From contig LJUD01000001.1 of NCBI GenBank assembly GCA_001304035.1, positions 1-34,851 on the forward strand: a stretch of 34,851 bases of DNA, in the 5' to 3' direction. This document shows positions 3,832-26,576 of this stretch, in pieces (the stretch's first letter is position 1; the number at the start of each line of letters is the position of its first letter). Origin of the DNA: a bacterium SM23_31. Its GTDB lineage: Bacteria > SM23-31. The position numbers and the translations under genes were made by a program. The notes under the pieces were generated by a model. The model searched no databases, was not told where the DNA came from, and saw nothing but the letters and a program-made list of their open reading frames with translations.

Positions 3832-3979
3832 AGATTAATATGTAATATAAAATAAAACATAAGAAACATAATTTAATAACAAAATAATTTTTTAAAGAAA
3901 ACAGTCGAATCTTGTAAATAAAATAATAACAATATATTACCAATGTTTTTCATGCACGTATTATTTAAAGAAACGGATA

Positions 3980-3995
3980 TGGCATATTATTTGCA
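3980..3995 (+). promoter_or_regulatory. Sigma-54 (-24/-12) promoter
   Basis: TGGCAT-attat-TTGCA against consensus TGGCAC-N5-TTGCW, with correct GG/GC spacing. It ends 58 nt upstream of ATG 4054. An NtrC-type activator is encoded at 10361..11794. Confidence 0.6.
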
Positions 3996-4053
3996 GATTA
4001 AGTTTTCAGAACACAAGAATATTTGTCAAAAGAAAAAATAGGAGGTGATTAAA

Positions 4054-5814
4054 ATGACAACATCATTTAATGAAGTTCTGGTGGTGGATGATGAAAAAGT
4101 CGTCTGCCAAAATTGTGAGAAAATTTTAAGGGAAGAAGGTTTTTCAGTAACAACGGTATTAAGCGGGCAAGAGTGTCTCGAATTAATAAATGAAAGAAAA
4201 TATGATGCCGTTATTCTGGACTTGAAAATCCCTGATATCAACGGTATGGAAATTTTAAAAGTGATCAAGGACAAAAACCCGCGTACCGCTGTAATAATAA
4301 TAACCGGGTACTCTTCAGCGGGAAGTGCTATTGAAGCTATGAAGTTAGGGGCTGCCGATTTTATTCCCAAACCTTTTACGCCGGATGAACTTTCTATTCC
4401 TTTGAAAGAAGCATTAAAAAGGAACAATCCGCTTGGAGGGGAGGGAGATATTGCGGTAGAGCCGATTATTAAAAAAGTTAAACTCGAAGAAGAAATCAGA
4501 GAAATTAAGTATGAAGAAGAAATCAGAGAAATTAAGTATGAAAAGTGGTCTTTAGATCTTTACAAACATGCCTATTTCTCTGAATGGATGGGAGTGCAAA
4601 TCGGTAAAGATGAAACGGCTCGAATTGTGCTGAATAATATGTTTTTTGAATTAAAAGGCAAGGTGAAATATATTGACCTTCCACAGGCAGGGGAGGAAGT
4701 AGACACCGATAATCCCAGCTTCAGGATATTTTATACAAATAAGGAAACATCTTTAACCTATATGGAAGCGTTTTGTTCTCCTGTTTCCGGAAAAGTAGTT
4801 GAAGTAAATCCTTTTGCTACAAGAAAGATAAATACTGTTAATGAGGATCCATTCCATTCCGGCTGGCTTATCAGGATAGAACCTTCAAGACTTCCCGAAG
4901 ACCTTAACATGCTGGAATCACGGAGAATACTTATCGCGGATGATGATAAAGAATCGCGGGAATCGTTGAATAAATATTTCAAGGATGATATCTACAATAT
5001 TTACCAAGCCTGGGACCTGAAGGATATCATAGAAGGCGTAAAAGAAAAGCAGTATGATGTAGCAATTCTGGGAGAAAATGTATACGGCACGCCGGTCTAT
5101 GATGCGGCTCAAAATATAAGAAGCGTTGACGAAAACCTTCCTATTATTGTTGTAACTGAAATTGATTCACCTGAATTAGCCGGGAAAGTTCGGGAACATG
5201 ACATATTTTACTATGCCATGAAACCTCTGGATGAAGCTGAAATTGACCTGGCTGTCAGAAATGCTTTCATGAAAATCGAACTAAAAAAACGGGCAATTCA
5301 GAAACCGTACAGGTTCGACCTGCCAAGCTTCATCAAAAGTATAGAGGTGGTGAATCGTTCCGGGAATCGTATTGCTGTAATAGGACTGGGAAACATATTC
5401 AATGAGGATATCGGTATCGGTCAAAACCTCGTGGACAGGCTAAAGAAAAACAATCTGCCCGTTGATCTGGACATGGACAGAAGAGAGCTCTATGGGAAAG
5501 AGATTATCCCGTATATAGAGAAAAATGATAAGATTATTTTAATCAACGGGATAGAGATGGGTTTTAATCCGGGGAAAATCAAGAAATTCTTTTATGATTC
5601 ATTTAAAACCGAGATAATCGACTACAAACCCAAACAGGATATCAGAATCAGCCAAATTGGTTATCCCGAGATTATGCATTGGATAAATGCTACAGGTATT
5701 GATACTGAAATGGTTGTAATCGGAATACAGACAAATCGGAAGGAAAGATTCTCATTCTCTCTGGAACAAAATAGTGAAGTAATCGATGAAATTCTATCAG
5801 AGGTATTGTCATAA
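4054..5814 (+). CDS. Chimeric response regulator: REC, GcvH-like domain, pseudo-receiver, hydrogenase-maturation-protease-like (HycI/HyaD-fold) domain
   Basis: The track ORF starts at GTG 4045. ATG 4054 lies 8 nt after AGGAGG (4039-4044). REC: VLVVDDE...ILDLKIPD...KPF. GcvH-like: CSPVSGKVVEVN...NEDPFHSGWLIRI. Second REC-like: ILIADDD...AILGENV. C-terminus: IAVIGLGNIFNEDIGIG...IILINGIEMGFNPG. Confidence 0.8.
   Translation: MTTSFNEVLVVDDEKVVCQNCEKILREEGFSVTTVLSGQECLELINERKYDAVILDLKIPDINGMEILKVIKDKNPRTAVIIITGYSSAGSAIEAMKLGAADFIPKPFTPDELSIPLKEALKRNNPLGGEGDIAVEPIIKKVKLEEEIREIKYEEEIREIKYEKWSLDLYKHAYFSEWMGVQIGKDETARIVLNNMFFELKGKVKYIDLPQAGEEVDTDNPSFRIFYTNKETSLTYMEAFCSPVSGKVVEVNPFATRKINTVNEDPFHSGWLIRIEPSRLPEDLNMLESRRILIADDDKESRESLNKYFKDDIYNIYQAWDLKDIIEGVKEKQYDVAILGENVYGTPVYDAAQNIRSVDENLPIIVVTEIDSPELAGKVREHDIFYYAMKPLDEAEIDLAVRNAFMKIELKKRAIQKPYRFDLPSFIKSIEVVNRSGNRIAVIGLGNIFNEDIGIGQNLVDRLKKNNLPVDLDMDRRELYGKEIIPYIEKNDKIILINGIEMGFNPGKIKKFFYDSFKTEIIDYKPKQDIRISQIGYPEIMHWINATGIDTEMVVIGIQTNRKERFSFSLEQNSEVIDEILSEVLS
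4486..4539 (+). repeat. Perfect 27-bp tandem duplication (2 units) inside the CDS, encoding EEEIREIKY twice
   Basis: gaagaagaaatcagagaaattaagtat occupies 4486-4512 and repeats exactly at 4513-4539. Confidence 0.95.
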
Positions 5815-5837: not shown

Positions 5838-5880
5838 AGAGCCTTCGGGAGCATCCACTCCCGAAGGCTCTTTCTATTTC
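5838..5880 (+). terminator. Rho-independent terminator
   Basis: 13-bp perfect stem agagccttcggga / tcccgaaggctct with an 8-nt loop, followed by ttctatttc. It starts 24 nt after the stop at 5814. Confidence 0.75.
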
Positions 5881-5948
5881 ATCAATATTTTTAGTCGCTT
5901 GAATAATGCCGGAATATCCGATTATTTTTAAATATTTGCAAATAACAT

Positions 5949-5977
5949 TTGACAATATTAAATGAATTTATTATAAT
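5949..5977 (+). promoter_or_regulatory. Consensus sigma-70-type promoter for the hydrogenase/sensor operon
   Basis: TTGACA (5949-5954), a 17-nt spacer, then TATAAT (5972-5977). Confidence 0.6.
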
Positions 5978-6123: not shown

Positions 6124-7110
6124 ATGCATAATTTACTCTGGTTGAAAAGCGCAGGCTGTGGAGGAGACAGTATATCTCTATTGAATCTTGACCAGCCGGA
6201 TTTATATACTGCTTTTAAAATGCTTGACATAAAAGTCGTTTGGTTTCCTTCTTTGAGTTTCGAGTCTGATAAGGATGTTCATGAGATACTCAATAAAATT
6301 ATTAATGGTGAAGAAAAATTGGATTTTTTGATGGTGGAAGGAGCAGTATGCGATGAAGATGAAAATAAAACCAATTATGTTACCTTTTGTGGACATCCGA
6401 TGAAACACTGGATTATTGAGCTTGCAAAAAGAGCATCTTTCACTATCGCGGTGGGAACCTGTGCTTCTTTTGGCGGCATCATGACAACAGGTTCTGATAA
6501 TATTAAATGGATGGGTCTTCAATATTTAATGAAAAAACATGGCGGAATACTCGGGGTAGACTACAGTTCTTCTTCGGGTTTTCCTGTAATAAATATTGCA
6601 GGCTGTCCTGCTCATCCTGACTGGATAATAGAAACCCTGAATTTTATTACTAAAGGCAAACTAACAGTAGATAACCTGGACAAATATCAACGTCCGGACT
6701 TATTTTACAGTAAGCTTGCTCATCATGCTTGCCCCCGGAACGAATACTATGAATTTAAAGCTTCCGCTGAAGAATATGGTCAACAGGGATGCCTTTTTGA
6801 AAACCTGGGGTGCAAAGCAACGCAGTGTGAATCCGATTGTAATGAAAGGCTGTGGCTGGGACGCACGGGGAGCTGTACGCGGGGCGGGTTTCCCTGTATT
6901 TCCTGTACCTCTCCCGTTTTTCCGGACGGATTTTTACCATTCTTTGAAACACAGAAAATTGAAGATATCCCCACTACTCTTCCTCTTGATGTTCCCAAGG
7001 CGTGGTATGTAGGAATAAGCGGTATGGCTAAACTTGCCTGCCCTAAAAGGCTGGCTGTCAACGCTGTATCTTTTAAAAAGATTGATGTGGAAAATGAGAA
7101 AGAAGAATAA
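6124..7110 (+). CDS. [NiFe]-hydrogenase small subunit, cytoplasmic type (no Tat leader, no C-terminal anchor)
   Basis: Starts MHNLLWLKSAGCGGDS. Cluster motifs GTCASFGG, GCPAHPDW, HHACP, GCLFENLGCKATQCESDC and SCTRGGFPCISC. Confidence 0.85.
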   Translation: MHNLLWLKSAGCGGDSISLLNLDQPDLYTAFKMLDIKVVWFPSLSFESDKDVHEILNKIINGEEKLDFLMVEGAVCDEDENKTNYVTFCGHPMKHWIIELAKRASFTIAVGTCASFGGIMTTGSDNIKWMGLQYLMKKHGGILGVDYSSSSGFPVINIAGCPAHPDWIIETLNFITKGKLTVDNLDKYQRPDLFYSKLAHHACPRNEYYEFKASAEEYGQQGCLFENLGCKATQCESDCNERLWLGRTGSCTRGGFPCISCTSPVFPDGFLPFFETQKIEDIPTTLPLDVPKAWYVGISGMAKLACPKRLAVNAVSFKKIDVENEKEE

Positions 7111-7114
7111 CAGA

Positions 7115-8611
7115 ATGAATAAGACTATAACAATAGGTTCTTTCAGCCGAATTGAAGGCGATCTTGAGATAAAGGTAGAATTAGAGAACGGCAAAATCAC
7201 CAAAGCCTACACTTCCGGAACTATGTTCCGCGGATTTGAGCGAATCCTCAAAGGCAGGGACCCTATGGATTCCTTAGTTTTCACATGTAGAGTCTGCGGT
7301 CTATGCGGTCTTTCACACTCGGCTGCATCTTCCTCAGCATTAAAGGAAGCATACAAAGCGGAAATGCCCCCAAATGCTTATTATGTAAAAAATATCCTTT
7401 TAGCCATTGAAAATATTGCGAACCATCTTACACAAATATATATGTTTTTCATGGTTGATTTTTTAAATAAAAAATATAAAGACATATCGGATTATGATAT
7501 TATTGCGAAGAGATATACTCCATTTACAGGTGAATCACAAAAAAAAGTTATATACGCACGAAAAAAATTATTGGAAATTATGGGGATAATTGGGGGTAAA
7601 TGGCCTAATTCTCTGGTAATGCAGCCCGGTGGTGTAACTAAAACACTCAGCCTTAGCGAAATTGTTTCCTGCTATGGAATACTCAGTGAAATCAGGGAGT
7701 TTTTAGAGAATACCCTTCTTGGTTGTCCTATGGAAAGCTGGCTGGAAAACAGGAGCTTCAGCGATATTGAAAAATGGATGGATGATGAAAAAAATGCAAA
7801 AAGCGATTTAGGAATGTTTATAAATTTTGGGACAAAAACCGGTCTATCTGAGATAGGAGCCGGCTCAGAAAAATTATTATCCTGCGGCGCGTATGAGGAA
7901 CCGGATGGAACATTCTGGCTAAAAAGCGGTTTATATGATGGAAGTTGGCTTCCCTTTGAACAAATAAAAATAGAAGAACACATTGCTTATTCCTGGTACG
8001 AAGGGTATGACGGAGGCATTCACCCCTCTAAAGGGATAACGATACCAAACACACGGAAAGAAAATGCATATAGCTGGTCAAAGTCTCCACGATATAATAA
8101 CGAAGTTATCGAAATGGGACCTCTTGCCCGGATGTTAGTGGGAAATAATCCATTAGCTTCGGATATTTTTAAAAAAAATGGATCAAGTGTTTTTACGCGC
8201 CAATTAATGAGAATTCATGAGACTATAATGTTGGCAGGTAAAATAAAAGACTGGCTCGATAATATCGACACGGAATCTCCTTTTTATATCAAACACAATA
8301 AATTGAAAGATTGCAGCGGGATTGGTTTAATAGAGGCTGCAAGAGGAATGCTCGGACACTGGATCAGTGTGGTTGATAATAGAATTTTCAATTATCAGAT
8401 AATTACACCAACCACATGGAATTTTTCCCCCCGGGATTCAGCCGGAAATCCCGGTATTTTAGAAAAATCCCTTACAAATCTCGAAATAGAAGATCCTGAA
8501 AACCCGATTGAGATGTACCATGTAATACGGTCTTTCGATCCCTGTATGGCTTGTACAGTGCATTCCGTCCGCGGAACAAAAAACGATGCATCATTTCATC
8601 TTACAATTTAG
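7115..8611 (+). CDS. [NiFe]-hydrogenase large subunit with 15-aa C-terminal extension
   Basis: N-terminal RIEGDLEI and RVCGLCGLSH. C-terminal DPCMACTVH followed by SVRGTKNDASFHLTI. Start chosen at ATG 7115 (MNKTITIG). ATG 7094 is an alternative; the track start 7034 would overlap the small subunit by 77 nt. Confidence 0.85.
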   Translation: MNKTITIGSFSRIEGDLEIKVELENGKITKAYTSGTMFRGFERILKGRDPMDSLVFTCRVCGLCGLSHSAASSSALKEAYKAEMPPNAYYVKNILLAIENIANHLTQIYMFFMVDFLNKKYKDISDYDIIAKRYTPFTGESQKKVIYARKKLLEIMGIIGGKWPNSLVMQPGGVTKTLSLSEIVSCYGILSEIREFLENTLLGCPMESWLENRSFSDIEKWMDDEKNAKSDLGMFINFGTKTGLSEIGAGSEKLLSCGAYEEPDGTFWLKSGLYDGSWLPFEQIKIEEHIAYSWYEGYDGGIHPSKGITIPNTRKENAYSWSKSPRYNNEVIEMGPLARMLVGNNPLASDIFKKNGSSVFTRQLMRIHETIMLAGKIKDWLDNIDTESPFYIKHNKLKDCSGIGLIEAARGMLGHWISVVDNRIFNYQIITPTTWNFSPRDSAGNPGILEKSLTNLEIEDPENPIEMYHVIRSFDPCMACTVHSVRGTKNDASFHLTI

Positions 8612-8613: not shown

Positions 8614-9063
8614 ATGATTATTGTGATCGGATATGGAAATACGCTCAGAGGGGATGATGGAGTCGGAGTAGAAATTATACAAAAATTGAAAAAAATGAAT
8701 CTTCAAAAACATATAAAAATCATTAATGGAGGAATCAGCGGTATTGATGTGCTTATGGATATTGGGGAATTCGAGAAACTCATAATTATTGATTCGATTA
8801 TCAGCGGCGGAAAAGAAGGTGCTCTTTATCGGATAACTCCTCCGGCATTGCCGGAGGTCGAAGAAGGAGTTCTATCGACTCATGCTCCTTCCTGGATCAG
8901 CTTTTTGAGATCTAATGTTGAATCCAGCGGGAAAGGCTATTGGTCAAACGTGATTTTTTATGGCATCGAAATAAGAAACACAATGATTGGGACAGAACTA
9001 AGTTCAAAGATTGCCCGTAAAATGCCCGATTATATAAATTCCATTCTCAAGGAGCTACAATGA
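8614..9063 (+). CDS. Hydrogenase maturation endopeptidase (HyaD/HybD type)
   Basis: MIIVIGYGNTLRGDDGVGV, IIIDSI and STH motifs. ATG 8614 lies 2 nt after the large-subunit stop. Confidence 0.8.
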   Translation: MIIVIGYGNTLRGDDGVGVEIIQKLKKMNLQKHIKIINGGISGIDVLMDIGEFEKLIIIDSIISGGKEGALYRITPPALPEVEEGVLSTHAPSWISFLRSNVESSGKGYWSNVIFYGIEIRNTMIGTELSSKIARKMPDYINSILKELQ

Positions 9064-10364
9064 GTGCAACAAGAGCAGAAAATTTATTAAAGACTTCTAA
9101 TAAAGATGTGCTTCAGGAGAGAATGTGGATCGAGATCATTAATCGGATGGAAAACCTTTATGCAAAGCTGGCAAACCGGCAGGAAGAAATAGAAAAGAAA
9201 AACAGAGAATTATTAAAAACAAAAGGATTCATTGAAAATGTTCTTAACCATATGGCATGTGCATTGATCGTTCTGGATTCTAACGGCAACATTAAAATGG
9301 TCAATGATGCCGCACTGACAATACTTGGATACAAAGAAGAAGACCTCCTTGGCAGACCAATGGAATTGATCTTTGAAAAGACCGACGGGAAAAGCCTCGT
9401 TATAGGATGTTCGTATTTTGAAAAGCTGGTAAAAGACGGAGCAATTAATAATTTTGAAATTTATTTTCGCAGTAAAGAGGGCGAAAGGATCCCTATGGTT
9501 TTGAGTGGATCTGTAACGAGAAATATATCTGGTGAAATTGATGATATAATTTCCGTGGCAAGAGATCTCCGGGACACAAAACGTATGTTGGCAGAAAAGG
9601 CAAGGGCAGAAGCAGAAAGGGCAAAGGCAGATGAGTTAGAAAAGGCTTATAATGAACTTCAGGAACTTAAAGCTCAACTTATACAATCGGAAAAGATGGC
9701 ATCCCTCGGACAACTGGCTGCCGGGATTGCCCATGAAATTAATAATCCGCTTACCGGTGTTTTGACTTCCGGGCATATATTACTTAAGAGATGTAAACCG
9801 GTTGATTCTAATAGAGAAGACCTTGAAATTATTGTCAATGAGACAACCCGGTGCCGGGAAATAGTACGGGGGCTTCTGGATTTTGCCCGACAGTCCAGTC
9901 CCCAAATGGTAACTGTAGACCTGACAAAATTAATTAACAAAACCCTCTCGATTATGGAAAATCAATTTCATATCAAAAATATTAAAATAATTAAAAAGTT
10001 GAAGGAAAATATCCCGGAGATTATGTTAGATGTAAACCAGATCGAGCAGGTTTTTGTCAACCTTTTACTAAATTCCATTGAAGCAATGCCCGAAGGTGGG
10101 ACCATTCTCATTGCTACTGAATACGATCAGTATTATATAATTATTACTTTTCAAGATACCGGACAAGGCATTCCCGAGAATATAATAGGAAAAATATTTG
10201 ATCCGTTTTTTTCAACGAAGTCTCGGAAAAAGGGTACAGGACTCGGCTTGTCAGTCAGCTACGGAATTATAAAGAAACATAATGGAACAATAGAAGTAAA
10301 AAGCAAGGAAAATGAAGGAACAATATTTACAATAAAACTTCCCATAAAACAAAATATTCTATGA
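9060..10364 (+). CDS. Soluble PAS-domain sensor histidine kinase
   Basis: No hydrophobic segments. PAS-like region LIVLDSNGNIKMVNDAA. H-box AAGIAHEINNPL. HATPase G-boxes DTGQGI and GTGLGL. ATGA overlap with the upstream gene. Confidence 0.85.
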   Translation: MSATRAENLLKTSNKDVLQERMWIEIINRMENLYAKLANRQEEIEKKNRELLKTKGFIENVLNHMACALIVLDSNGNIKMVNDAALTILGYKEEDLLGRPMELIFEKTDGKSLVIGCSYFEKLVKDGAINNFEIYFRSKEGERIPMVLSGSVTRNISGEIDDIISVARDLRDTKRMLAEKARAEAERAKADELEKAYNELQELKAQLIQSEKMASLGQLAAGIAHEINNPLTGVLTSGHILLKRCKPVDSNREDLEIIVNETTRCREIVRGLLDFARQSSPQMVTVDLTKLINKTLSIMENQFHIKNIKIIKKLKENIPEIMLDVNQIEQVFVNLLLNSIEAMPEGGTILIATEYDQYYIIITFQDTGQGIPENIIGKIFDPFFSTKSRKKGTGLGLSVSYGIIKKHNGTIEVKSKENEGTIFTIKLPIKQNIL

Positions 10365-11794
10365 GTATGCTCGAAGAAAAAATTAATAAAAACATCGCTG
10401 TCCTGGTCATTGATGACGAGTCGGTGGTAAGAAATGCATGCCGCAAAATCCTGACAGAAGAAGGTTACAAGGTTATTCTGGCTGAAAACGGCAGAGAAGG
10501 CCTGGAAAAATCTGAAATGGGAATAGGAGATGTCATTCTCGTTGACCTTAAAATGCCGGATATAAGCGGGATGGAGGTTTTGAAAGAGATAAAGATAAAA
10601 TTTCCCCGTAAACCCGTCATCGTAATAACGGGATATTCCACAGTAGATTCAGCCGTGGAAGCGATGAAATTAGGCGCTTTCGATTATGTTCCAAAACCAT
10701 TTACACCGGATGAGCTTTCTCTTATTGTTCACAAAGCTTTAGAAAAGAAAAAGCTGCTTGATGAGTTAGATTTCTTGCGGAAAGAGCTTTATGAAAAATA
10801 TAAAGTTAAAAACATAATCGGTAAAAGCGAGGGGATGAAGGAAGTTTTTCGTCTTGTCAGCAAGGTTGCAAATACAGACAGCACCGTCCTGATCTATGGA
10901 GAAAGTGGTACAGGCAAAGAGGTAATAGCAAAGGCTATTCATATCCAGAGCCGCCGGCAGGACAAAAGGTTTTTGGCGATTGACTGCAGTGCTCTATCCC
11001 CGACCCTTCTTGAAAGTGAATTATTCGGACACGTAAAAGGAGCTTTCACAGGTGCAATATCTACCAAACCGGGCATTTTTGAAATAGCAAACAACGGAAC
11101 AATTTTCCTCGATGAAATATCGAATATCAGTTCTGAAATACAGGCTAAACTCCTGCGGATTATCGAAGAGCAAGAATATAAGCCGGTCGGCGGCTCTGAA
11201 ATGAAAAAAATCGATGTCCGGTTAATATCTGCTACAAATAAAGACCTTAAATTGTTTGTCAAAAAAAATATATTCAGGGAAGACCTTTTTTATCGTTTGA
11301 ACGTTTTTCCGATATTCCTTCCTCCATTGAGAGAAAGAAAGGAAGACATTCCACTTTTAGCTACCCATTTCTTAAAACTGTTCACAAAAGAGCTGAACAA
11401 ACAAATAGACGGATTTTCCGATGAATCCATGAATCTTTTTATCAATTATCATTGGCCCGGAAATGTCAGGGAGTTGAAAAACACGGTGGAAAGGCTGGTA
11501 ATTACCGTGGAAGATGATATTATCAAACCGGAATATTTATCCGATATTCTTAAGACGCAAAGTATAAGAGAATACATAACCATCCCGAAAGATAAAGACG
11601 AATTAAGAAAACTGAAGAAAAAGATTAAGAATCAGGCAATTGCAGAGCTCGAGAAAAAATTCCTTTTAGAATCACTGAAACAAAATAACTGGAATGTTTC
11701 ACGGGCTGCCCGGGAAACCGGATTTCAAAGAACAAATTTTCATACTCTAATGAGAAAATACAAGATTAAATTATCAGATAAAGAGTCTTTCTGA
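10361..11794 (+). CDS. NtrC-family sigma-54-dependent response regulator (REC, AAA+, Fis-type HTH)
   Basis: REC with VDLKMPD. Walker A GESGTGKE. GAFTGA motif intact. C-terminal HTH NVSRAARETGFQRTNFHTLMRKY. ATGA overlap with the kinase gene. Confidence 0.9.
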   Translation: MSMLEEKINKNIAVLVIDDESVVRNACRKILTEEGYKVILAENGREGLEKSEMGIGDVILVDLKMPDISGMEVLKEIKIKFPRKPVIVITGYSTVDSAVEAMKLGAFDYVPKPFTPDELSLIVHKALEKKKLLDELDFLRKELYEKYKVKNIIGKSEGMKEVFRLVSKVANTDSTVLIYGESGTGKEVIAKAIHIQSRRQDKRFLAIDCSALSPTLLESELFGHVKGAFTGAISTKPGIFEIANNGTIFLDEISNISSEIQAKLLRIIEEQEYKPVGGSEMKKIDVRLISATNKDLKLFVKKNIFREDLFYRLNVFPIFLPPLRERKEDIPLLATHFLKLFTKELNKQIDGFSDESMNLFINYHWPGNVRELKNTVERLVITVEDDIIKPEYLSDILKTQSIREYITIPKDKDELRKLKKKIKNQAIAELEKKFLLESLKQNNWNVSRAARETGFQRTNFHTLMRKYKIKLSDKESF

Positions 11795-11941: not shown

Positions 11942-12385
11942 TCATCCCGTCAAGATATTAACTAACCTGCAAACCGATTGTTCCAATTCGGTGCTCAATC
12001 CTTCTTTAAGCTCAGTTGTTGCCGGTTGAATACCGAGTAGAAAAATTTTAGCTGGAATATGCTGGCAAATATAAGAAGCGAAAAGGTTCAGAGAAGCATT
12101 ATGTGTAGAGAATCCATATTCACTACATTCGTCAGGAGTAAAGATTTTCCAACTGCCGGGTTCGCCTTCAAAGGAGAGAGCATCTATAATGATAATAGTA
12201 TCCGGGCGATACTGGATAATAAACTTAGTATAATTTTCAGGAACTGTTCCAACGTCTAATATATTAGTAAAACCTGCCGAAGATAATTTTTCAACTAAAA
12301 CCGGACCAACCCCATCATCTCCCCGCTGGCGATTACCCACACCGATAAAAAGTACACGCCCGACAGCAATCTCGTCAAGATTCAC
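11942..12385 (-). CDS. Hydrogenase maturation endopeptidase (HycI type)
   Basis: FIGVGNRQRGDDGVG, IIIDAL...PG and FSTHNASL motifs. It is the last gene of the group-4 hydrogenase cluster. Confidence 0.8.
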   Translation of the reverse strand: MNLDEIAVGRVLFIGVGNRQRGDDGVGPVLVEKLSSAGFTNILDVGTVPENYTKFIIQYRPDTIIIIDALSFEGEPGSWKIFTPDECSEYGFSTHNASLNLFASYICQHIPAKIFLLGIQPATTELKEGLSTELEQSVCRLVNILTG

Positions 12386-12497: not shown

Positions 12498-13118
12498 TTA
12501 TTCAAATGTGCCCCACTCTTCGGAAAGGATTACGTTTCTGCGGCAGTCGGGACATAAAATCCGGGCATTATCATTCCTTCCGATTCTCCGTTTATCCCGT
12601 TCCGGTGTTTGGGCTACCAGTTCTAATTCCCCCAAACCGACAAGCATCAATGTCCAGTTTCCGGCAACACTCGAGCCTAACCGGTGGTAAATCCACTTCA
12701 AGTGATCCTTCGTAGCAAACGGTCTGCCGCATATTTCACATTTAACCATCTCTTTTTCAACTTTTTCAACAGCGTCTGCCCGATCAAAAACGGCAAGATC
12801 AAACTCCTGATTCTGAATAATCCCCTTTTTAGTAGTGCATTTTTCCACGCACGTTCCACAATAAACACAATTATCCAAATGGACGGTTAATATACGATAT
12901 ATCTTATCATCTTTCTGTTCTTCGGTAATTTCAATTGCATTAGCCGGACATACTTCGCTGCAAGCTCCGCATCCGATGCATTCTTCCTCCTGATATTCCG
13001 GTTTGCCCCGAAATTCTACAGGTATCGGAGGAGGAGATTTTGGAAAATCTATTGTATAGGGACCCGCTACTAATGCGATAACTGCTTCTTTTAATTCCCG
13101 TAGTTTCGGTTTCTTCAT
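12498..13118 (-). CDS. 2x[4Fe-4S] ferredoxin subunit, HycF/NuoI-like
   Basis: CIGCGACSEVCP and CVYCGTCVEKC, plus a C-terminal CEICGRPF...CPDCRR tail resembling the Cys tail of E. coli HycF. Confidence 0.75.
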   Translation of the reverse strand: MKKPKLRELKEAVIALVAGPYTIDFPKSPPPIPVEFRGKPEYQEEECIGCGACSEVCPANAIEITEEQKDDKIYRILTVHLDNCVYCGTCVEKCTTKKGIIQNQEFDLAVFDRADAVEKVEKEMVKCEICGRPFATKDHLKWIYHRLGSSVAGNWTLMLVGLGELELVAQTPERDKRRIGRNDNARILCPDCRRNVILSEEWGTFE

Positions 13119-13141
13119 GATTTTATTTCTCCGCCAATATT

Positions 13142-13492
13142 TCAGGAGTCTTCTTTTTTCAGCGAACCTTGCCGGTCTTCAAGGTACTTATCACATGCAC
13201 TGCCTTTCCATAATTTATAACCGGCTTTATGGGACGCTCGCGAAATGGCATGTGCCGCAGTAGGTGAAGTCATAAAAATAAACCAAATGCAAAGAATAGC
13301 TTTTATACCTACTGCATTTATACCATTATAAAAGACTGCCCCTAAGAGAATTAAGCACGTTCCTAAAGTAACACATTTTGTCGAACTCTGGAGCCGGTTG
13401 TATACATCAGGAAGCCGTACCAAGCCTAAACAGCCGGAAAAGTCGAAAATAAGTCCGCAAACGATCAAAATAAATCCGATTGTTTCAGTCAT
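13142..13492 (-). CDS. Mrp/Mnh antiporter subunit G-like
   Basis: Three TM segments with RLPDVYNRLQSSTK and SPTAAHAISRA motifs. Start moved to ATG 13492, which overlaps the upstream stop by 8 nt; the track start 13528 would overlap more. Confidence 0.75.
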   Translation of the reverse strand: MTETIGFILIVCGLIFDFSGCLGLVRLPDVYNRLQSSTKCVTLGTCLILLGAVFYNGINAVGIKAILCIWFIFMTSPTAAHAISRASHKAGYKLWKGSACDKYLEDRQGSLKKEDS

Positions 13493-13739
13493 CGTAAGTT
13501 CTTCCTTCCAGAAACTTTGATAAAGCAATCGATCCTATAAAGCTCAATAACGCCCAGGCTAAGGCAATGTTCATATATAAATCTTGCTTGCTTAATGCAG
13601 AGAATATCCCACAAAATCCAACTATAATAATTCCTAATATATCATTAGCCACTATCCGGTCGGATGGTGTCGGACCAAAGGCAATTCGGTACAGACACAT
13701 AAAACAACATATAATTAATACAACAATACAACCGGTCAT
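13485..13739 (-). CDS. Mrp/Mnh antiporter subunit F-like
   Basis: 84 aa, three hydrophobic helices, GPTPSDRIVAND motif. Confidence 0.7.
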   Translation of the reverse strand: MTGCIVVLIICCFMCLYRIAFGPTPSDRIVANDILGIIIVGFCGIFSALSKQDLYMNIALAWALLSFIGSIALSKFLEGRTYDD

Positions 13740-14257
13740 TCGAATATCCTCCTGAGAATATTTTCAAATTTATTTACGATAATAATAGTTGCGCCTTCTA
13801 TGTCTTTCGCAAGCACATTAATCCAATGAATATAGAGATATTCTCCTTCTATATCTACAGTTAAGGTACCCGGGGTTAACGTGATAGAATTTGCCAGAAA
13901 TGTCTTTGCAAGATCGGTTGTAAGGGCAGTACGAACCTTTACTATCCCTGGATTAATGGGCAAGTCCGGATGGAGCACCCGGTAGAGAACATCAAGATTT
14001 GCCTTGAATACACAATAGAGAAAATAAGGGATATATACTAAAAGCCAGAAAAGACGGCGTGGAGTAAATAGTAGTACCATGTTAGGGGGAAACAAATCCG
14101 ATAAAAAAAGCACAACGCCTGCTGCAACAATTACGCCGACAATTAAGGTCAACGGGTCTATTGTCCATGTAAGCGCTAACCAAATAAGAAACATTAAAAG
14201 AAACTCAAAAAGGCGTACTCTGAATTTGAATCCTGTTGACTTTTCTATTGACTCCAT
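13736..14257 (-). CDS. Mrp/Mnh antiporter subunit E-like
   Basis: 173 aa. N-terminal TM pair, then ANSITLTPGTLTVDI motif. 4-nt overlap with the F subunit. Confidence 0.7.
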   Translation of the reverse strand: MESIEKSTGFKFRVRLFEFLLMFLIWLALTWTIDPLTLIVGVIVAAGVVLFLSDLFPPNMVLLFTPRRLFWLLVYIPYFLYCVFKANLDVLYRVLHPDLPINPGIVKVRTALTTDLAKTFLANSITLTPGTLTVDIEGEYLYIHWINVLAKDIEGATIIIVNKFENILRRIFE

Positions 14258-14491
14258 ACGATATCCCGGAAAATTACATTATTTATTTGTTAAAAACGTC
14301 AAAGAGGTTTACGATGCCTCATTGACGCCCCGAGTATTCGGGGCGGCTACCGATTATATTTTTTATTATTACCTGCACATGATAGCCGCACACCTATAGT
14401 GTGCGCTTGATTTTGCCAAAGTTCTGCTAATATTAAAATTTGCGAAAGTCCTGATAATAGCATAATTCTAATAGCAAACAGCTAACAGTGA

Positions 14492-15973
14492 TTATGGAAC
14501 TACTTGTAATACCAGTTGTATATATTTTTGCTGGTCTATTACGGTATCCCGTGCTATCTCTAATAAAGTATTGCCGAAAAAGGGATATAGAAGACCGGAC
14601 AGGAGACATAATACTGCAAAAATAACAAGCACCGTCCCCATTAAAACCGGAACCTCCTTGATGTTCTTCAATTTCTCAGGGAGGTCTCCAAATATAGAAT
14701 ATCTCTGTACCTTAATGAAGGAGACCAGCGTAAGAAAACTGACACCAACGGTAACTGCTGCGATTGCATAATATTCCGCCTGAACCAGGGCAATAATAAT
14801 AAGCAATTTGCTCCAGAAACCGTTAAACGGGGGTATTCCGGATATAGAAAGTGATGCAATAGAGCATGAGCTTGAAGTAACCGGCATTCTTTTAAAGAGT
14901 CCGCCCATTTCCTTAAGATTTCTCGTGCCGGTACTGTATTCAACTGCCCCCGAGCATAAAAATAAAAGAGACTTGAAAAAAGCATGGTTCATCAAATGGA
15001 ACAAAGCTCCGAGTATGCCCAGAGGAGTAGCAAGCCCGATTCCAACCATTACATAACCCATCTGACTTATACTGTGATATGCTAAAAGCCGTTTGAAGTC
15101 CCACTGCCCCACAGCGAGTAATACACCGACAACCATCGACAATACTCCGAGGGACATCAATATTATATGAGTGATATTGGTCATACCGATAACATGGTAA
15201 ACGACACGAATGATAGCATAAATACCACAGGCTTTGATGAGTACTCCCGAGAGCATGGCAGAAATTGGTGCAGGGGCAGATGGGTGAGCATCCGGCAGCC
15301 ATGCATGAAATGGAACCATAGCACCTTTCAAGCCAAAACCCATAATAAAAAGCCCTTCTGCAAAGAGAACCGATCTGTTTATCCCGTTAGCCAAAATTGA
15401 GTTAGCCAAATCAGCCATGTTCAGTGTTCCAAAAGTAGCATATAAAATTGCAATACCCAGCAAAATTAATGTAGATGAAACACTTCCTAAAATCATATAT
15501 TTGAAAGAAGCTTCCAATTCTTCATGTTCGCATCCAAATCCCACCAGTGCATAGGAGGAAATAGTAGCAATCTCTAAAAACACAAATAAATTAAATATGT
15601 CACCTGTAATAACCACACCGCTCATTCCCGCTACCATTAACATAAAAAGTGAGTAAAACCGTATCTTGGATGTGTACATCTCCATATATTTAAATGAATA
15701 TAAAAGGGATAATAAACCCACGATATTTATAAGGAGTAATAATAATGTGCTAATACTATCAGAAACCAGCGTGATACCTATCGGGGGTATCCACTTTCCA
15801 ATAAAATATGAAAACGGTTCATGACCAATTAGAGCAATAACCATGATAAGTAAAATGATTTCTGCAATAGCCACAATGACTTCAACTAATTTGGTGAGCG
15901 ATTTCGGAAAAAGGAGAATAAGAAATGCTACGCCTAACGGAATAGCGACGAACAATGGATACAATTGCTGCAT
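14492..15973 (-). CDS. Antiporter-like proton/sodium-translocating subunit (MrpD/NuoM/N family)
   Basis: 493 aa and polytopic. Motifs WLPDAHPSAPAPISAMLSG and LLAYHSISQMGY. Confidence 0.85.
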   Translation of the reverse strand: MQQLYPLFVAIPLGVAFLILLFPKSLTKLVEVIVAIAEIILLIMVIALIGHEPFSYFIGKWIPPIGITLVSDSISTLLLLLINIVGLLSLLYSFKYMEMYTSKIRFYSLFMLMVAGMSGVVITGDIFNLFVFLEIATISSYALVGFGCEHEELEASFKYMILGSVSSTLILLGIAILYATFGTLNMADLANSILANGINRSVLFAEGLFIMGFGLKGAMVPFHAWLPDAHPSAPAPISAMLSGVLIKACGIYAIIRVVYHVIGMTNITHIILMSLGVLSMVVGVLLAVGQWDFKRLLAYHSISQMGYVMVGIGLATPLGILGALFHLMNHAFFKSLLFLCSGAVEYSTGTRNLKEMGGLFKRMPVTSSSCSIASLSISGIPPFNGFWSKLLIIIALVQAEYYAIAAVTVGVSFLTLVSFIKVQRYSIFGDLPEKLKNIKEVPVLMGTVLVIFAVLCLLSGLLYPFFGNTLLEIARDTVIDQQKYIQLVLQVVP

Positions 15974-16034
15974 AATTACCTATCTAACCCCAAATATAAT
16001 TTATGATGAGCAAACAGAAGTCTACAATTATTCT

Positions 16035-16385
16035 CTACCCTCTCAACCTGCTTATTTCAGACGTATCAAACGTTTTATATTTTTCGTAAAGACGTAAGGC
16101 GATACTGACCATCATGATTAAAACACCCAAACTAATTACAATGGAAGTTAATACTAATGCTTGTGGTAATGGGTCGACACTTTGTTGGGAAAACGTTTGC
16201 TTATTCATACCTTCAAAGAGAACAGGAGGAATTCCCCCTGATTTATAGCCAATTAAAATTAAAAAGAGATTTACCGCATAATCAAGAATTGCTATACCAA
16301 TAATTTTTTTTATAAGATGTTTTTTTGCTATTAAACAATACAATCCCATTACAAACAGGAAAAAACACATTAAGTAGATGGTCAT
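16035..16385 (-). CDS. MrpC/NuoK-like small membrane subunit
   Basis: 116 aa, three TM helices, DPLPQALVLTSIVI motif. Confidence 0.7.
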   Translation of the reverse strand: MTIYLMCFFLFVMGLYCLIAKKHLIKKIIGIAILDYAVNLFLILIGYKSGGIPPVLFEGMNKQTFSQQSVDPLPQALVLTSIVISLGVLIMMVSIALRLYEKYKTFDTSEISRLRG

Positions 16386-16397
16386 TGAAACTTCTCC

Positions 16398-16880
16398 TTA
16401 CAAATTACGATCTATATTACCTACATATTCCTCATCATTCTCATATTCTTCTGCATCGCCGACAAAGCGTCCAAAAAAAACAAGCAACACAAATATTGTA
16501 AAAATAGCGGATACAATGATTATGCTAATAGCTATATCTGCAAACGGAATCAAACCGGCGCTGTGTAAATGAAATTCCTTACCGTGATCTATGAAATTAA
16601 AAAAGAATGTCCCATCTATATAACCCAACAGGGCAATAGCCAGAAATGCCAGAGCTCCGATACAACTGAGAAAATGAGCTACATTTGTTCTCATTTTCTG
16701 AATGGCTTTTTCTCTTCCAAAAACCAGCATAATCAGGATAAAACCGCACGTTAGAATAACTCCGCCTGCGAAACCGCCTCCAACGCCTAAATGTCCAAAT
16801 AAAATAATGTTAATACCATAGAGAAAAATCAGTCCAATTACAAATTGGGTTACTTTCTTTACAATAAGACTCATACCCAT
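16398..16880 (-). CDS. MnhB/MrpB-domain membrane subunit
   Basis: GHLGVGGGFAGG motif (MnhB GHxxPGGGFxGG type) with four TM helices. Confidence 0.7.
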   Translation of the reverse strand: MGMSLIVKKVTQFVIGLIFLYGINIILFGHLGVGGGFAGGVILTCGFILIMLVFGREKAIQKMRTNVAHFLSCIGALAFLAIALLGYIDGTFFFNFIDHGKEFHLHSAGLIPFADIAISIIIVSAIFTIFVLLVFFGRFVGDAEEYENDEEYVGNIDRNL

Positions 16881-16913
16881 TTGAGTGCGCTCCTTTGTTT
16901 ACCGGTGTACCTA

Positions 16914-17444: not shown

Positions 17445-17464
17445 AAAGCCCTCTCATTGAAAAT

Positions 17465-19291: not shown

Positions 19292-19429
19292 GGACTTTTA
19301 CCTTAACTATTACTATTAAGCTTCTTTATCTCCCGAAAGTACGTGCCCGAATTCATTACAGCAGGGTCGACAAGGAACTCACTTTTCCGGATAATCCAAA
19401 TGTCATATAATCATTCACATCCGGGTTTT

Positions 19430-21551: not shown

Positions 21552-21622
21552 TTGCCCTTATATAATCTTAAATTGAAAAGTAATTGGTTTTTTTTCGATT
21601 ATTAAAAATACCTTTCAAAATT

Positions 21623-22558: not shown

Positions 22559-22592
22559 ATGTTTTAAACCCTTGCTGGAGAATATATTTATC

Positions 22593-23342: not shown

Positions 23343-23379
23343 ATACTATAACCCTCCTAATTGTTACGTATATTTCACC

Positions 23380-23871: not shown

Positions 23872-23878
23872 GATTCAC

Positions 23879-25717: not shown

Positions 25718-25724
25718 CTATATT

Positions 25725-26552: not shown

Positions 26553-26576
26553 CTATTGATTCTTTGGAAAATAAGG

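What the first reader, a model, noticed from the sequence alone, without database searches (positions are those of the whole stretch)
4054..5814. Four-domain response regulator ending in a degenerate hydrogenase-maturation-protease domain
Read from the translation, the protein has four parts.

- Canonical receiver: acidic pair DD, phospho-acceptor Asp in ILDLKIPD (codon 4219-4221), conserved T and K.
- GcvH-like domain: CSPVSGKVVEVN...NEDPFHSGWLIRI. The position aligned to the lipoyl-lysine of E. coli GcvH (ESVKAASDIYAPVSG) is Thr (4756-4758), so it is probably not lipoylated.
- Second receiver-like domain: the phospho-acceptor position reads Gly (AILGENV).
- HycI/HyaD-fold domain: IAVIGLGNIFNEDIGIG...IILINGIEMGFNPG.

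The two bona fide endopeptidases in this window carry GDDGVG and IIIDS/IIIDA. In the fourth domain the second Asp is Ile (5410-5412) and the IIxD Asp is Asn. These correspond to two of the three metal ligands defined in E. coli HybD (Glu16, Asp62, His93). So the window holds three paralogous protease folds, one apparently inactive and wired to a phospho-receiver. I do not recognise this architecture as described. A plausible role is phosphorylation-controlled binding of the uncleaved large-subunit C-terminal tail, giving a maturation checkpoint or sensor. That role is speculation.
Basis: partly seen in the sequence, partly recalled or inferred. Interest (0 to 1): 0.85.

Follow-up and report, generated by a model that had tools for sequence, protein, structure and literature searches.

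The report
Response regulator carrying dead hydrogenase protease
A rare signalling protein from an uncultured sediment bacterium joins a phosphorylation switch to inactive copies of a hydrogenase-maturation protease and a glycine-cleavage H protein, and always sits beside hydrogenase genes, which suggests an undescribed link between hydrogen sensing and hydrogenase assembly or activity.

Summary
ORF 4054-5814 (586 aa) has four domains:
- a canonical receiver (D56);
- a GcvH-like domain with no conserved lipoyl-Lys;
- a pseudo-receiver (acceptor is Gly340);
- a homologue of [NiFe]-hydrogenase maturation endopeptidases (Pfam and NCBIfam above cut-off; hhalign 97%).

The family is very rare: 14 clusters among 5.8 billion proteins, all unnamed, with no literature found.

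New findings:
- The dead endopeptidase domain defines a wider, undescribed set of response-regulator output domains: REC-HycI-like, REC-REC*-HycI-like, and REC-GcvH-REC-HycI-like x1-2.
- The genes carry conserved sigma54-type promoters.
- Close family members always lie next to hydrogenase genes. They sit before a group-2 hydrogenase/protease/PAS-kinase/sigma54-activator operon (as here) or directly before a group-4 hydrogenase operon.

Best reading: a phospho-switched docking protein with no DNA-binding domain that acts on a hydrogenase large subunit or its maturation complex. This is inferred, not shown. I classify it as a new variant of a known kind, of moderately high interest.

The parts
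3910..3942 (+). Conserved upstream promoter blocks: TCTTGTAAAT (consensus ATTTTGTAA) and CAATATATTACCA. Candidate activator or IHF site.
   Evidence: Conserved in non-coding DNA of six loci whose proteins are 59-76% identical. The second block occurs only here in the window.
3980..3995 (+). Sigma54-type promoter, -24/-12: TGGCATATTATTTGCA, 58 nt before the ATG.
   Evidence: One of only two matches in the window with at most one mismatch. TGGCAY-N5-TTTGY is conserved upstream of the gene in L001, L003, L007, L008 and L009.
4040..4045 (+). Ribosome-binding site AGGAGG.
   Evidence: Read from the sequence. GGAGG is conserved in all six aligned loci.
4054..5814 (+). Coding sequence of the four-domain response regulator (586 aa).
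4069..4419 (+). REC1 (aa 6-122): canonical NtrC-type receiver with D12, D13, D56, T84 and K106.
   Evidence: Pfam Response_reg. Top NCBIfam hits are AtoC, NtrX, ZraR and NtrC receivers. Key residues are invariant. It is 56% identical to the receiver of the sigma54 activator at 10361-11794.
4420..4548 (+). Low-confidence charged linker (aa 123-165). It includes a perfect 27-bp tandem duplication at 4486-4542 (EEEIREIKY x2).
   Evidence: pLDDT below 50 at aa 125-162. TRF: period 27, 2.1 copies, 100% match. All other family members have a single copy.
4549..4917 (+). GcvH-like domain (aa 166-288) without a conserved lipoyl-Lys.
   Evidence: Pfam GCV_H E 3e-14. PDB GcvH E 5e-10. Residue table and alignment with E. 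coli GcvH.
4918..5289 (+). REC2 (aa 289-412): pseudo-receiver whose acceptor position is Gly340 (5071-5073).
   Evidence: Second Response_reg stretch. Aligned with REC1. G340 is present in all 11 close members and in P0013; P0078 and P0269 have Asp there.
5326..5811 (+). Catalytically degenerate HycI/HybD-like (peptidase A31) domain (aa 425-586). I453, N498 and S533 replace the three metal ligands.
5838..5881 (+). Intrinsic terminator (14-bp stem with 9 G-C pairs, then a T-run). The gene is therefore monocistronic.
5949..5977 (+). Sigma70 consensus promoter, 12 of 12 (TTGACA-17-TATAAT), in front of the sensor-hydrogenase operon.
6124..7110 (+). Small subunit of a cytosolic [NiFe] hydrogenase, without a Tat signal.
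   Evidence: Oxidored_q6 + NiFe_hyd_SSU_C. The protein aligns from position 40 of the NiFeSe small-subunit model, so the signal-peptide region is absent.
7115..8611 (+). Group-2 [NiFe] hydrogenase large subunit (498 aa) with a 15-aa C-terminal tail after DPCMACTVH.
   Evidence: Best PDB match is the chain set 7utd/7uus, E 1e-108; that these are M. smegmatis Huc is from my own knowledge. Translation.
8614..9063 (+). Real HyaD/HybD-type maturation endopeptidase (GDDGVG, IIIDS, STH).
9060..10364 (+). Soluble PAS-HisKA-HATPase histidine kinase. Candidate phosphodonor for REC1.
10361..11794 (+). NtrC-type sigma54 activator (REC-AAA+-HTH_8). Candidate activator of the 3980 promoter.
11942..12385 (-). 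Real HycI-type endopeptidase, the last gene of the group-4 hydrogenase operon. By pairwise BLAST it is the window's closest paralogue of the dead domain.
   Evidence: TIGR00142 hycI, 110 bits. 29% identity over 150 aa, E 5e-8.
12498..27656 (-). Rest of the group-4 operon: formate-hydrogenlyase/Mrp-type membrane-bound [NiFe] hydrogenase. Its large subunit (19430-20644) has a 46-aa tail.
   Evidence: The same operon lies directly downstream of the homologue in L003/L004 and L009.

Best explanation
Shown:
- The gene encodes a response regulator with no DNA-binding domain.
- Its N-terminal NtrC-type receiver is intact.
- The other three domains are a GcvH-like barrel without the lipoyl-Lys, a pseudo-receiver with Gly at the acceptor position, and a peptidase-A31 (HybD/HycI) homologue with all three metal ligands replaced.
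- All four domains are under purifying selection.
- The dead A31 domain is the signature output module of a small, undescribed clade of response regulators.
- The gene is monocistronic, with a conserved sigma54-type promoter.
- In every close relative examined it lies next to [NiFe] hydrogenase genes.

Inferred:
1. The adjacent module (group-2 hydrogenase, PAS kinase, sigma54 activator) senses H2 or redox state and switches on this gene through the sigma54 promoter.
2. The new protein is phosphorylated on D56, most simply by the same PAS kinase.
3. Phosphorylation rearranges the REC1/pseudo-receiver pair. PleD is the architectural precedent (REC, adaptor REC, output).
4. This exposes or dimerises the dead endopeptidase domain.
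5. That domain docks on a [NiFe] large subunit or its maturation complex, on the face normally used by the real endopeptidase. It cannot cleave, so it would act as a decoy or adaptor. It would gate the last maturation step, or tether signalling components to the enzyme.

The target could be the group-4 enzyme or the group-2 sensor. The data do not decide between them.
For: - Architecture and homology.
- Loss of ligands in the family and across the whole receiver-fused clade.
- Selection: mean pairwise identity is REC1 0.79, GcvH 0.68, REC2 0.66, HycI-like 0.70, against 0.54-0.55 in the linkers.
- A clade-specific motif (RExxGKEIxxYLE) replaces the D(G/C/F)GT region. PMC2670836 proposes that region is involved in docking and specificity.
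- Wider clade of REC-fused dead A31 domains.
- Genomic linkage, type A: gene, small subunit, large subunit, protease, PAS kinase, sigma54 activator. Seen in the window, L001/L002, L007 and L008.
- Genomic linkage, type B: gene directly upstream of a group-4 operon, in L003/L004 and L009.
- Simple REC-HycI-like forms: one sits between a Cache kinase/sigma54 activator pair and a group-4 operon (L013). Another follows a group-3 hydrogenase cluster (L012).
- Sigma54 promoters. Terminator and separate sigma70 promoter for the sensor operon.
- Real A31 proteases form stable complexes with large subunits, with or without the tail (PMC5299533). The fold is therefore an established large-subunit docking module.
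- REC1 is of the same NtrC type as the operon's activator receiver (56% identity).
Against: - There is no experimental data on any member.
- Published protease docking depends on the [NiFe] cofactor, and the lost residues are the proposed Ni ligands. Docking in the canonical mode is therefore doubtful.
- Two wider-clade members have no [NiFe] hydrogenase within 10 kb. L010 has a multihaem cytochrome with Hdr-like and NuoEF-like genes. L011 has two-component genes only.
- REC1 is no closer to its own operon's activator than to sigma54 activators of other loci (52-58%), so a shared kinase is not demonstrated.
- The inter-domain geometry is unknown (pTM 0.43).
- The isolated-domain model is poor (pLDDT 54), and Foldseek support is weak (TM at most 0.46).
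- The role of the GcvH-like domain is unexplained.
Confidence: 0.4

Rival explanations
1. Phosphate sink or feedback modulator. The sigma54-induced protein competes with the sigma54 activator for phosphoryl groups from the PAS kinase and so tunes or terminates the response. The extra domains only localise or stabilise it.
For: - REC1 is an intact NtrC-type receiver, 56% identical to the operon activator's receiver.
- The gene has its own sigma54 promoter, so it can be induced by the pathway it would damp.
- Additional single-domain receivers are common in related loci.
Against: - It does not explain why three extra domains are conserved at 66-70% identity.
- It does not explain why the dead A31 domain recurs as the C-terminal module in several architectures.
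- REC1 similarity to the neighbouring activator is not locus-specific.
Confidence: 0.25
2. The A31 fold has been taken over as a general protein-interaction module with a partner that is not a hydrogenase. Candidates are the kinase, the sigma54 activator, or Hdr-like or flavin-based redox complexes. The hydrogenase linkage would reflect a shared regulon, not physical contact.
For: - All Ni ligands are lost, and in the wider clade the GxGN motif is lost too.
- Members occur next to Hdr-like, NuoEF-like and cytochrome genes (L005, L010) or next to two-component genes only (L011).
- Every locus with at least 6 kb of upstream flank, except type B (L003, L009), has a kinase plus sigma54 activator pair nearby.
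Against: - The close family keeps GLGN, the invariant first Asp (D452) and an overall endopeptidase-like profile above the curated cut-offs.
- It is hydrogenase-linked in all 6 independent contexts examined.
Confidence: 0.2
3. The C-terminal domain is still an active endopeptidase that uses other residues. The protein would be a phosphorylation-controlled third maturation protease.
For: - Homology to A31 peptidases is solid.
- The first Asp of the GDDG motif (D452) is retained in 10 of 11 members.
Against: - All three ligand columns are non-acidic, non-His and variable: I/F/N/S; N/D/S/K; S/N/K.
- Each of the two hydrogenases already has its own intact endopeptidase.
Confidence: 0.03
4. A decaying fusion, or an assembly or annotation artefact, with no function for the degenerate domains.
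For: - The family is known only from metagenomes.
- The linker carries a recent 27-bp duplication.
Against: - Full-length orthologues with the same domain order occur on independent contigs from several samples.
- The degenerate domains are as conserved as the GcvH-like domain and more conserved than the linkers.
- The promoter, RBS and terminator are intact and conserved.
Confidence: 0.02

Closest known systems
[NiFe]-hydrogenase maturation endopeptidases (peptidase family A31: HybD, HyaD, HycI, HoxW, HupD)
   Same: - Homologous fold and sequence profile (Pfam HycI and TIGR00072 above cut-off; hhalign 97%; best PDB sequence match 5ttx).
- The nearest active relatives are mostly HyaD/HybD/HupD-type and share the motif xIGxPxV...G..PEVxVIGxQ.
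- Encoded beside hydrogenase genes.
   Different: - All three proposed Ni ligands (HybD Glu16, Asp62, His93; PMC2670836) are replaced.
- The D(G/C)GT region is replaced by a clade-specific RExxGKEIxxYLE motif.
- There is an extra N-terminal strand motif (xVxTVNRSG).
- It is the C-terminal domain of a response regulator, not a stand-alone protein of about 150-170 aa.
PleD-type REC / adaptor-REC / output response regulators
   Same: - A phosphorylatable receiver, followed by a receiver-like domain lacking the acceptor Asp, followed by an output domain.
- PleD chains are the top Foldseek hits for the full-length model.
- Relatives P0135 and P0150 have exactly REC-REC*-output.
   Different: - The output is a dead endopeptidase fold, not a GGDEF cyclase.
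- A GcvH-like domain and a long linker lie between the two receivers.
- The PleD superposition is poor (RMSD about 15 A), so the resemblance is one of architecture only.
RssB (receiver fused to an inactive PP2C-like domain, acting as an adaptor). Comparison from my own knowledge.
   Same: A response regulator whose output is a catalytically dead enzyme fold that works by binding a protein partner.
   Different: The pseudo-enzyme fold and the partner are unrelated. No adaptor activity has been shown here. This is an analogy only.
Glycine-cleavage H protein and lipoate-binding GcvH-like proteins (such as LbpA of sHdr systems; the latter from my own knowledge)
   Same: GCV_H homology, E 3e-14, with the PVSG...N...GW core.
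   Different: - No conserved Lys at or near the hairpin tip.
- Embedded in a response regulator.
- No gcvP/gcvT or lipoate-ligase genes in the window.
- The distant homologue P0078 does have a Lys at the aligned position and sits next to HdrCBA-like genes.
H2-sensing two-component systems (HoxBC-HoxJ-HoxA of Cupriavidus necator; HupUV-HupT-HupR)
   Same: - A cytosolic group-2 [NiFe] hydrogenase without a Tat signal.
- A soluble PAS histidine kinase.
- An NtrC-type activator encoded together with them.
   Different: - Here the large subunit keeps a 15-aa tail and has its own endopeptidase. Classical sensor large subunits lack the extension (my own knowledge).
- A further sigma54-driven response regulator with a dead endopeptidase domain precedes the operon. 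No such component is described for the Hox or Hup systems.

Membership tests
Response regulator (CheY-like receiver) | Receiver-domain profile match above the curated cut-off | tested here: met
   Pfam Response_reg 158 bits against cut-off 30.2, two stretches.
Response regulator (CheY-like receiver) | Acidic pair, phospho-acceptor Asp, conserved Thr/Ser and Lys in REC1 | tested here: met
   D12, D13, D56, T84 and K106 are invariant in 13 sequences.
Response regulator (CheY-like receiver) | Phosphotransfer from a cognate histidine kinase | not testable with these tools
   The candidate kinase is at 9060-10364. REC1 is NtrC-type but not locus-specifically similar to the activator's receiver.
Pseudo-receiver / adaptor receiver (PleD D2-like) | Receiver fold lacking the phospho-acceptor Asp | tested here: met
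   G340 aligns with D56. D296, D297, T368 and K390 are retained. G340 is present in all 11 close members and in P0013.
Pseudo-receiver / adaptor receiver (PleD D2-like) | Mediates phosphorylation-dependent dimerisation with REC1 | not testable with these tools
   Inter-domain confidence of the model is low (pTM 0.43).
GcvH / lipoyl-carrier proteins | GCV_H fold and profile match | tested here: met
   Pfam GCV_H 53 bits against cut-off 22.2. PDB GcvH E 5e-10.
GcvH / lipoyl-carrier proteins | Conserved lipoyl-lysine at the beta-hairpin tip | tested here: not met
   The three alternative aligned columns (230, 234, 235) read K/R/E/N, L/S/F and T/I. The hairpin turn in the model is aa 230-234. The window protein happens to have K230, but this is not conserved.
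GcvH / lipoyl-carrier proteins | Genomic association with glycine-cleavage P/T/L genes or lipoate ligase genes | tested here: not met
   None among the annotated genes of the window.
Peptidase A31 hydrogenase maturation endopeptidase | Sequence and profile homology | tested here: met
   Pfam HycI 27.4 against 23. TIGR00072 52 against 47.45. hhalign 97.2%. PDB 5ttx E 3e-6.
Peptidase A31 hydrogenase maturation endopeptidase | Three metal ligands (HybD Glu16, Asp62, His93, or their equivalents) | tested here: not met
   I453, N498 and S533 in the window; variable and non-liganding across the family and the whole REC-fused clade. P0001 alone has Asp at position 498.
Peptidase A31 hydrogenase maturation endopeptidase | Predicted three-dimensional fold matches solved A31 structures | tested here: inconclusive
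   The isolated-domain model has pLDDT 54. The top Foldseek hits are A31 peptidases (5ttx, 5zby, 2kml, 5ija, 2e85), but TM is at most 0.46.
Peptidase A31 hydrogenase maturation endopeptidase | Stand-alone protein of about 150-170 aa that cleaves a large-subunit tail | tested here: not met
   It is the C-terminal domain of a 586-aa protein. Cleavage activity is not testable here.
H2-sensing hydrogenase two-component module (context) | Cytosolic group-2 hydrogenase encoded with a PAS kinase and an NtrC-type activator | tested here: met
   The same gene order is found in L001, L007 and L008.
H2-sensing hydrogenase two-component module (context) | Sensor large subunit lacks the C-terminal extension and needs no endopeptidase (own knowledge of group 2b) | tested here: not met
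   A 15-aa tail follows DPCMACTVH, and a dedicated endopeptidase is encoded at 8614-9063.
Proposed new clade: receiver-fused dead A31 (HycI-like) output domain | Located C-terminal to one or more receivers; motifs xVxTVxRxGxRxA, RExxGKEIxxYLExxDxV and IGxPxVxxWxxAxG; no metal ligands | tested here: met
   Profile search and alignment. The members tested hit TIGR00072 at E 1e-5 to 1e-14.

The most novel reading that the evidence does not exclude
The protein is a phosphorylation-controlled decoy endopeptidase. When phosphorylated (or dephosphorylated), its dead A31 domain occupies the protease-docking face of a [NiFe] large subunit. It thereby gates the final proteolytic step of hydrogenase maturation in response to H2. 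This would be the first signal-dependent, post-translational checkpoint on metalloenzyme maturation exerted by a two-component system. It would also make the receiver-fused dead A31 domain a new class of response-regulator output.
Probability: 0.2. Interest if true: 0.85.

Novelty: new variant of a known kind. Interest (0 to 1): 0.62.

Why it matters
Response regulators are usually transcription factors or enzymes. Here the output is a pseudo-enzyme derived from the protease that completes [NiFe]-hydrogenase maturation, and the gene is embedded in hydrogenase loci.

If the domain docks on a large subunit, three things follow:
- Two-component signalling would be shown to act directly on hydrogenase assembly or activity, not only on transcription.
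- There would be a natural inactive protease for trapping and studying the poorly understood protease/large-subunit complex.
- A new output-domain family would be added to response-regulator censuses.

The locus also documents a group-2 hydrogenase, kinase and sigma54 circuit in uncultured sediment phyla (SM23-31, KSB1, Krumholzibacteria), apparently wired to a group-4 energy-converting hydrogenase.

Tried and rejected
1. The many 410-aa and 557-aa 'response regulators' scoring about 210 bits in the first search are REC-X-REC proteins. They have no GCV_H or HycI signal and are not relatives beyond the receivers.
2. Foldseek on the full-length model returned only receiver and PleD hits. It says nothing about the other domains.
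3. The C-terminal domain modelled alone had pLDDT 54. Its Foldseek hits are led by A31 peptidases, but TM is at most 0.46. I use this only as weak corroboration.
4. A scan of 185,579 species-representative genomes with two family peptide patterns confirmed no relative. Wider-clade alignments were too divergent for pattern scanning.
5. The word-indexed search with the wider-domain profile missed the REC-fused members. It returned only stand-alone 183-aa forms.
6. I tested whether REC1 is specifically co-evolved with its operon's sigma54 activator receiver. The identity (52-60%) equals that to activators of unrelated loci, so I rejected this as evidence for a shared kinase.
7. I looked for the conserved upstream block at other promoters in the window and found none. 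I also looked for TGGCA...TTGY upstream of the group-4 operons in L003 and L009 and found none. A common regulon with the group-4 operon is therefore not shown. The window's candidate site at 28110-28125 is 453 nt from the annotated start.
8. The subfamily of origin is unresolved. BLAST favours the window's HycI-type paralogue. Profiles and the nearest active relatives favour the HyaD/HybD type.
9. Literature searches for REC-HycI or REC-GcvH fusions and for SM23-31 hydrogenases found nothing relevant.
Full report
**1. The observation**

ORF 4054-5814 (+) encodes 586 aa. The ATG at 4054 lies 8 nt after an AGGAGG. Pfam recognises four domains:
- two Response_reg stretches (aa 8-113 and about aa 291-400);
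- GCV_H at aa 181-288 (E 3e-14, 53 bits against cut-off 22);
- HycI at aa 481-583 (27.4 bits against cut-off 23).

Independent evidence agrees.
- The middle segment matches solved GcvH proteins (E 5e-10).
- The best solved match for the last segment is a hydrogenase maturation peptidase (5ttx, E 3e-6).
- The last segment passes NCBIfam TIGR00072 (52 bits against 47.45).
- An hhalign comparison of the family's C-terminal alignment with six real endopeptidases gives 97.2% probability, E 4.5e-11.

An AlphaFold model of the whole protein has mean pLDDT 73. The domain cores reach 80-90 and the linkers are low. The last domain modelled alone is poor (pLDDT 54). Even so, its top Foldseek hits are A31 peptidases, with TM at most 0.46. 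I treat that as weak corroboration only.

**2. Residue-level claims**

REC1 has the full catalytic set (D12, D13, D56, T84, K106), invariant in 13 sequences. REC2 keeps D296, D297, T368 and K390, but has Gly340 at the acceptor position in all 11 close members and in P0013.

In the last domain the endopeptidase ligand positions are I453, N498 and S533. So all three proposed nickel ligands are lost, not two. Across the family these columns read I/F/N/S, N/D/S/K and S/N/K. The alignment of the third ligand is secured by the nearest active relatives: SLHEIGLPQV against RISQIGYPEI.

The position equivalent to the lipoyl-Lys cannot be fixed, because of a 5-6 residue insertion. Different alignments place it on K230, L234 or T235. 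The model's hairpin turn is aa 230-234. None of these columns conserves Lys, so the family is not a lipoyl carrier. The window protein's own K230 is an unconserved coincidence.

All four domains are under comparable purifying selection. Mean pairwise identity is 0.79, 0.68, 0.66 and 0.70, against 0.54-0.55 in the linkers. The 'degenerate' domains are therefore functional, not decaying.

**3. Rarity and relatives**

Searching without the N-terminal receiver recovers only 14 clusters among 5.8 billion proteins. All are unnamed and all come from metagenomes. No relative was confirmed in 185,579 species-representative genomes.

The window is the complete 34,851-bp contig of 'bacterium SM23_31', an NCBI metagenome-assembled genome in which the neighbouring genes are annotated as hypothetical proteins. 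SM23-31 is treated as a candidate phylum near Calditrichota and Zixibacteria (PMC10439189).

An exhaustive profile search with the C-terminal domain gave a new result. Between the family itself and ordinary stand-alone endopeptidases lies a tier of receiver-fused proteins:
- REC-HycI-like, about 300-320 aa (P0124, P0126-P0128, P0130, P0132);
- REC-HycI-like plus a C-terminal extension (P0129);
- REC-REC*-HycI-like (P0135, P0150);
- REC-GcvH-REC-HycI-like x2 (P0269);
- the distant four-domain protein P0078, whose C-terminus matches at hhalign 79%, E 1.6e-5.

All of them lack the three ligands. They share motifs absent from real endopeptidases: xVxTVxRxGxRxA, RExxGKEIxxYLExxDxV and IGxPxVxxWxxAxG. 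The second motif replaces the D(G/C/F)GT region. PMC2670836 proposes that this region takes part in docking and specificity. The members tested still hit the hydrogenase-protease superfamily model.

The dead A31 domain is therefore a recurrent response-regulator output module. The window protein is one elaborated form of it. KSB1 protein P0013 (39% identical) is REC-GcvH-REC* without the last domain. The GcvH-like and HycI-like modules thus combine independently.

**4. Genomic setting**

Downstream in the window lie five genes:
- a small subunit without a Tat signal (6124-7110);
- a large subunit (7115-8611) whose best solved relative is the 7utd/7uus chain set (E 1e-108; Huc of M. smegmatis, from my own knowledge), which places it in group 2, and which has a 15-aa tail;
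- its own HyaD/HybD-type endopeptidase (8614-9063);
- a soluble PAS histidine kinase (9060-10364);
- an NtrC-type sigma54 activator (10361-11794).

This resembles the HoxBC-HoxJ-HoxA and HupUV-HupT-HupR H2-sensing systems. The difference is that the large subunit keeps a tail and a protease.

Convergent on the minus strand is a group-4, formate-hydrogenlyase/Mrp-type hydrogenase operon (11942-27656). It ends in a real HycI, and its large subunit has a 46-aa tail.

Relatives show two arrangements.
- Type A: gene, small subunit, large subunit, protease, PAS kinase, sigma54 activator. Seen in L001/L002, L007 and L008.
- Type B: gene directly upstream of the same kind of group-4 operon. Seen in L003/L004 and L009.

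In the wider clade:
- P0132 lies between a Cache kinase/sigma54 activator pair and a group-4 operon.
- P0124 follows a group-3 hydrogenase/kinase/HycI cluster.
- P0013 is 5 kb from a group-3 hydrogenase.
- P0078 and P0128 are next to Hdr-like and NuoEF-like genes.
- P0150 is next to two-component genes only.

**5. Expression signals**

The best sigma54 consensus match in the window is TGGCATATTATTTGCA at 3980-3995, 58 nt before the ATG. The same element (TGGCAY-N5-TTTGY) and two upstream blocks are conserved in the non-coding DNA of six loci. Sigma54-type sites also precede the genes for P0078, P0013, P0128, P0150 and P0132. The background rate is 0.019 per 400 nt.

A 14-bp-stem terminator follows the stop codon (5838-5871). 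The sensor operon has its own perfect sigma70 promoter (5949-5977).

So the sensor module looks constitutively expressed, whereas this regulator needs an enhancer-binding protein. The neighbouring activator is the obvious candidate, but this is an inference.

**6. How it most likely works**

Shown: the architecture, the loss of catalytic residues, selection on all domains, clade membership, the promoter type and the hydrogenase linkage.

Inferred:
1. The group-2 hydrogenase/PAS-kinase/activator module turns the gene on.
2. D56 is phosphorylated, most simply by the same kinase. REC1 is NtrC-type and 56% identical to the activator's receiver. This similarity is not locus-specific.
3. The REC1/pseudo-receiver pair acts as a PleD-like switch.
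4. The dead A31 domain docks on a [NiFe] large subunit or its maturation complex, as a decoy or adaptor.

The literature supports one step of this and undercuts another. Real proteases form stable complexes with large subunits, whether or not the tail is present. However, docking depends on the [NiFe] cofactor, and the tail is not the key docking site (PMC5299533). The lost residues are the proposed Ni ligands (PMC2670836). An A31 fold is therefore a credible large-subunit docking module.

I put 0.4 on the docking model. The rivals are a phosphate sink or feedback role (0.25), an A31 fold re-used for a non-hydrogenase partner (0.2), residual protease activity (0.03) and a functionless fusion (0.02).

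Which hydrogenase is the target is open. Pairwise BLAST favours the group-4 HycI paralogue (29% identity over 150 aa). Profiles and the nearest active relatives favour the HyaD/HybD type.

**7. Comparison and novelty**

As a homologue, the last domain belongs to peptidase family A31. It fails that family's defining functional features: the ligands, the stand-alone form and, presumably, cleavage. The GcvH-like domain fails the lipoyl-Lys test.

In architecture the protein resembles PleD (REC, adaptor REC, output). In concept it resembles RssB, a receiver fused to a dead enzyme fold that acts as an adaptor; that comparison is from my own knowledge.

I found no description of a receiver/A31 or receiver/GcvH fusion. 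I classify it as a new variant of a known kind: a response regulator with a previously undescribed pseudo-enzyme output domain.

Interest is moderately high (0.62). The architecture and the wider clade are new and hydrogenase-linked. The function is inferred only, and the organisms are uncultured.

Noticed in passing
window 4486-4542: A perfect in-frame 27-bp tandem duplication (EEEIREIKY x2) in the REC1/GcvH linker. The 93%-identical P0001 and all other family members have one copy, so the event is recent and strain-specific. The P0007/P0009/P0010/P0011 subclade has a different insertion of about 20 aa in the same linker.
   Followed up: yes
window 5949-5977: A sigma70 consensus promoter matching 12 of 12 positions (TTGACA-17-TATAAT) in front of the group-2 hydrogenase/kinase/activator operon. 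It contrasts with the sigma54 promoter of the gene under study.
   Followed up: partly
window 6124-9063: A group-2 (Huc-like) cytosolic hydrogenase is encoded with a PAS kinase and a sigma54 activator, like an H2 sensor. Unlike classical HoxC/HupV sensors, its large subunit keeps a 15-aa C-terminal tail and has a dedicated endopeptidase. It may be a distinct sensory subgroup.
   Followed up: partly
window 28110-28125 (-): The second-best sigma54-like site, TGGCACAATTTTTGTA, lies upstream of the group-4 operon. It is 453 nt from the annotated TTG start (27656). Similar sites were not found upstream of the group-4 operons in L003 and L009, so its significance is uncertain.
   Followed up: partly
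window 22593-23342 (-): A TPR-repeat protein gene is embedded in the group-4 hydrogenase operon, between the Fer4_11 gene and the NuoH-like gene. A 249-aa gene occupies the same position in L003/L004. This is an unusual component for such an operon.
   Followed up: no
window 28159-28599 (-) and 28702-30585 (-): An RsbW/SpoIIAB-like HATPase_c_2 protein lies just upstream of the group-4 operon. Next to it is a 626-aa ORF with no Pfam match at E 1e-5.
   Followed up: no
L005 9760-11385 (P0078): This distant four-domain homologue has a Lys at the aligned lipoyl position (IEGKGQHLIPSPITG) and an Asp at the REC2 acceptor position. It sits immediately upstream of HdrC/B/A-like genes. This recalls lipoate-binding GcvH-like proteins of Hdr-like systems, so it may be a modified or more 'active' ancestral form.
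   Followed up: partly
P0269 (731 aa, no locus fetched): The architecture is REC-GcvH-REC followed by two tandem dead HycI-like domains. REC2 has an Asp at the acceptor position.
   Followed up: partly
L010 10001-15186 (P0128): The simple REC-HycI-like gene ends exactly where a gene for a 1408-aa multihaem cytochrome begins (coordinate 10960). HdrC/B-like, NuoE/F-like and Fer2_4 genes follow. This is a redox context with no [NiFe] hydrogenase within 10 kb.
   Followed up: no
P0131 and P0272-P0275 (183 aa); P0129 (466 aa): Stand-alone 183-aa versions of the dead HycI-like domain exist on long contigs and have no NCBIfam hit. P0129 carries an extra C-terminal domain of about 165 aa that JGI labels rubrerythrin.
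   Followed up: no
L001 1-9344: In the P0005 locus, the type-A module is preceded by a second hydrogenase cluster (HdrA-like, FlpD/MvhD, FrhB-like, a group-3 hydrogenase, HycI) with its own receiver and kinase. One neighbourhood therefore holds two hydrogenases and two signalling sets.
   Followed up: no
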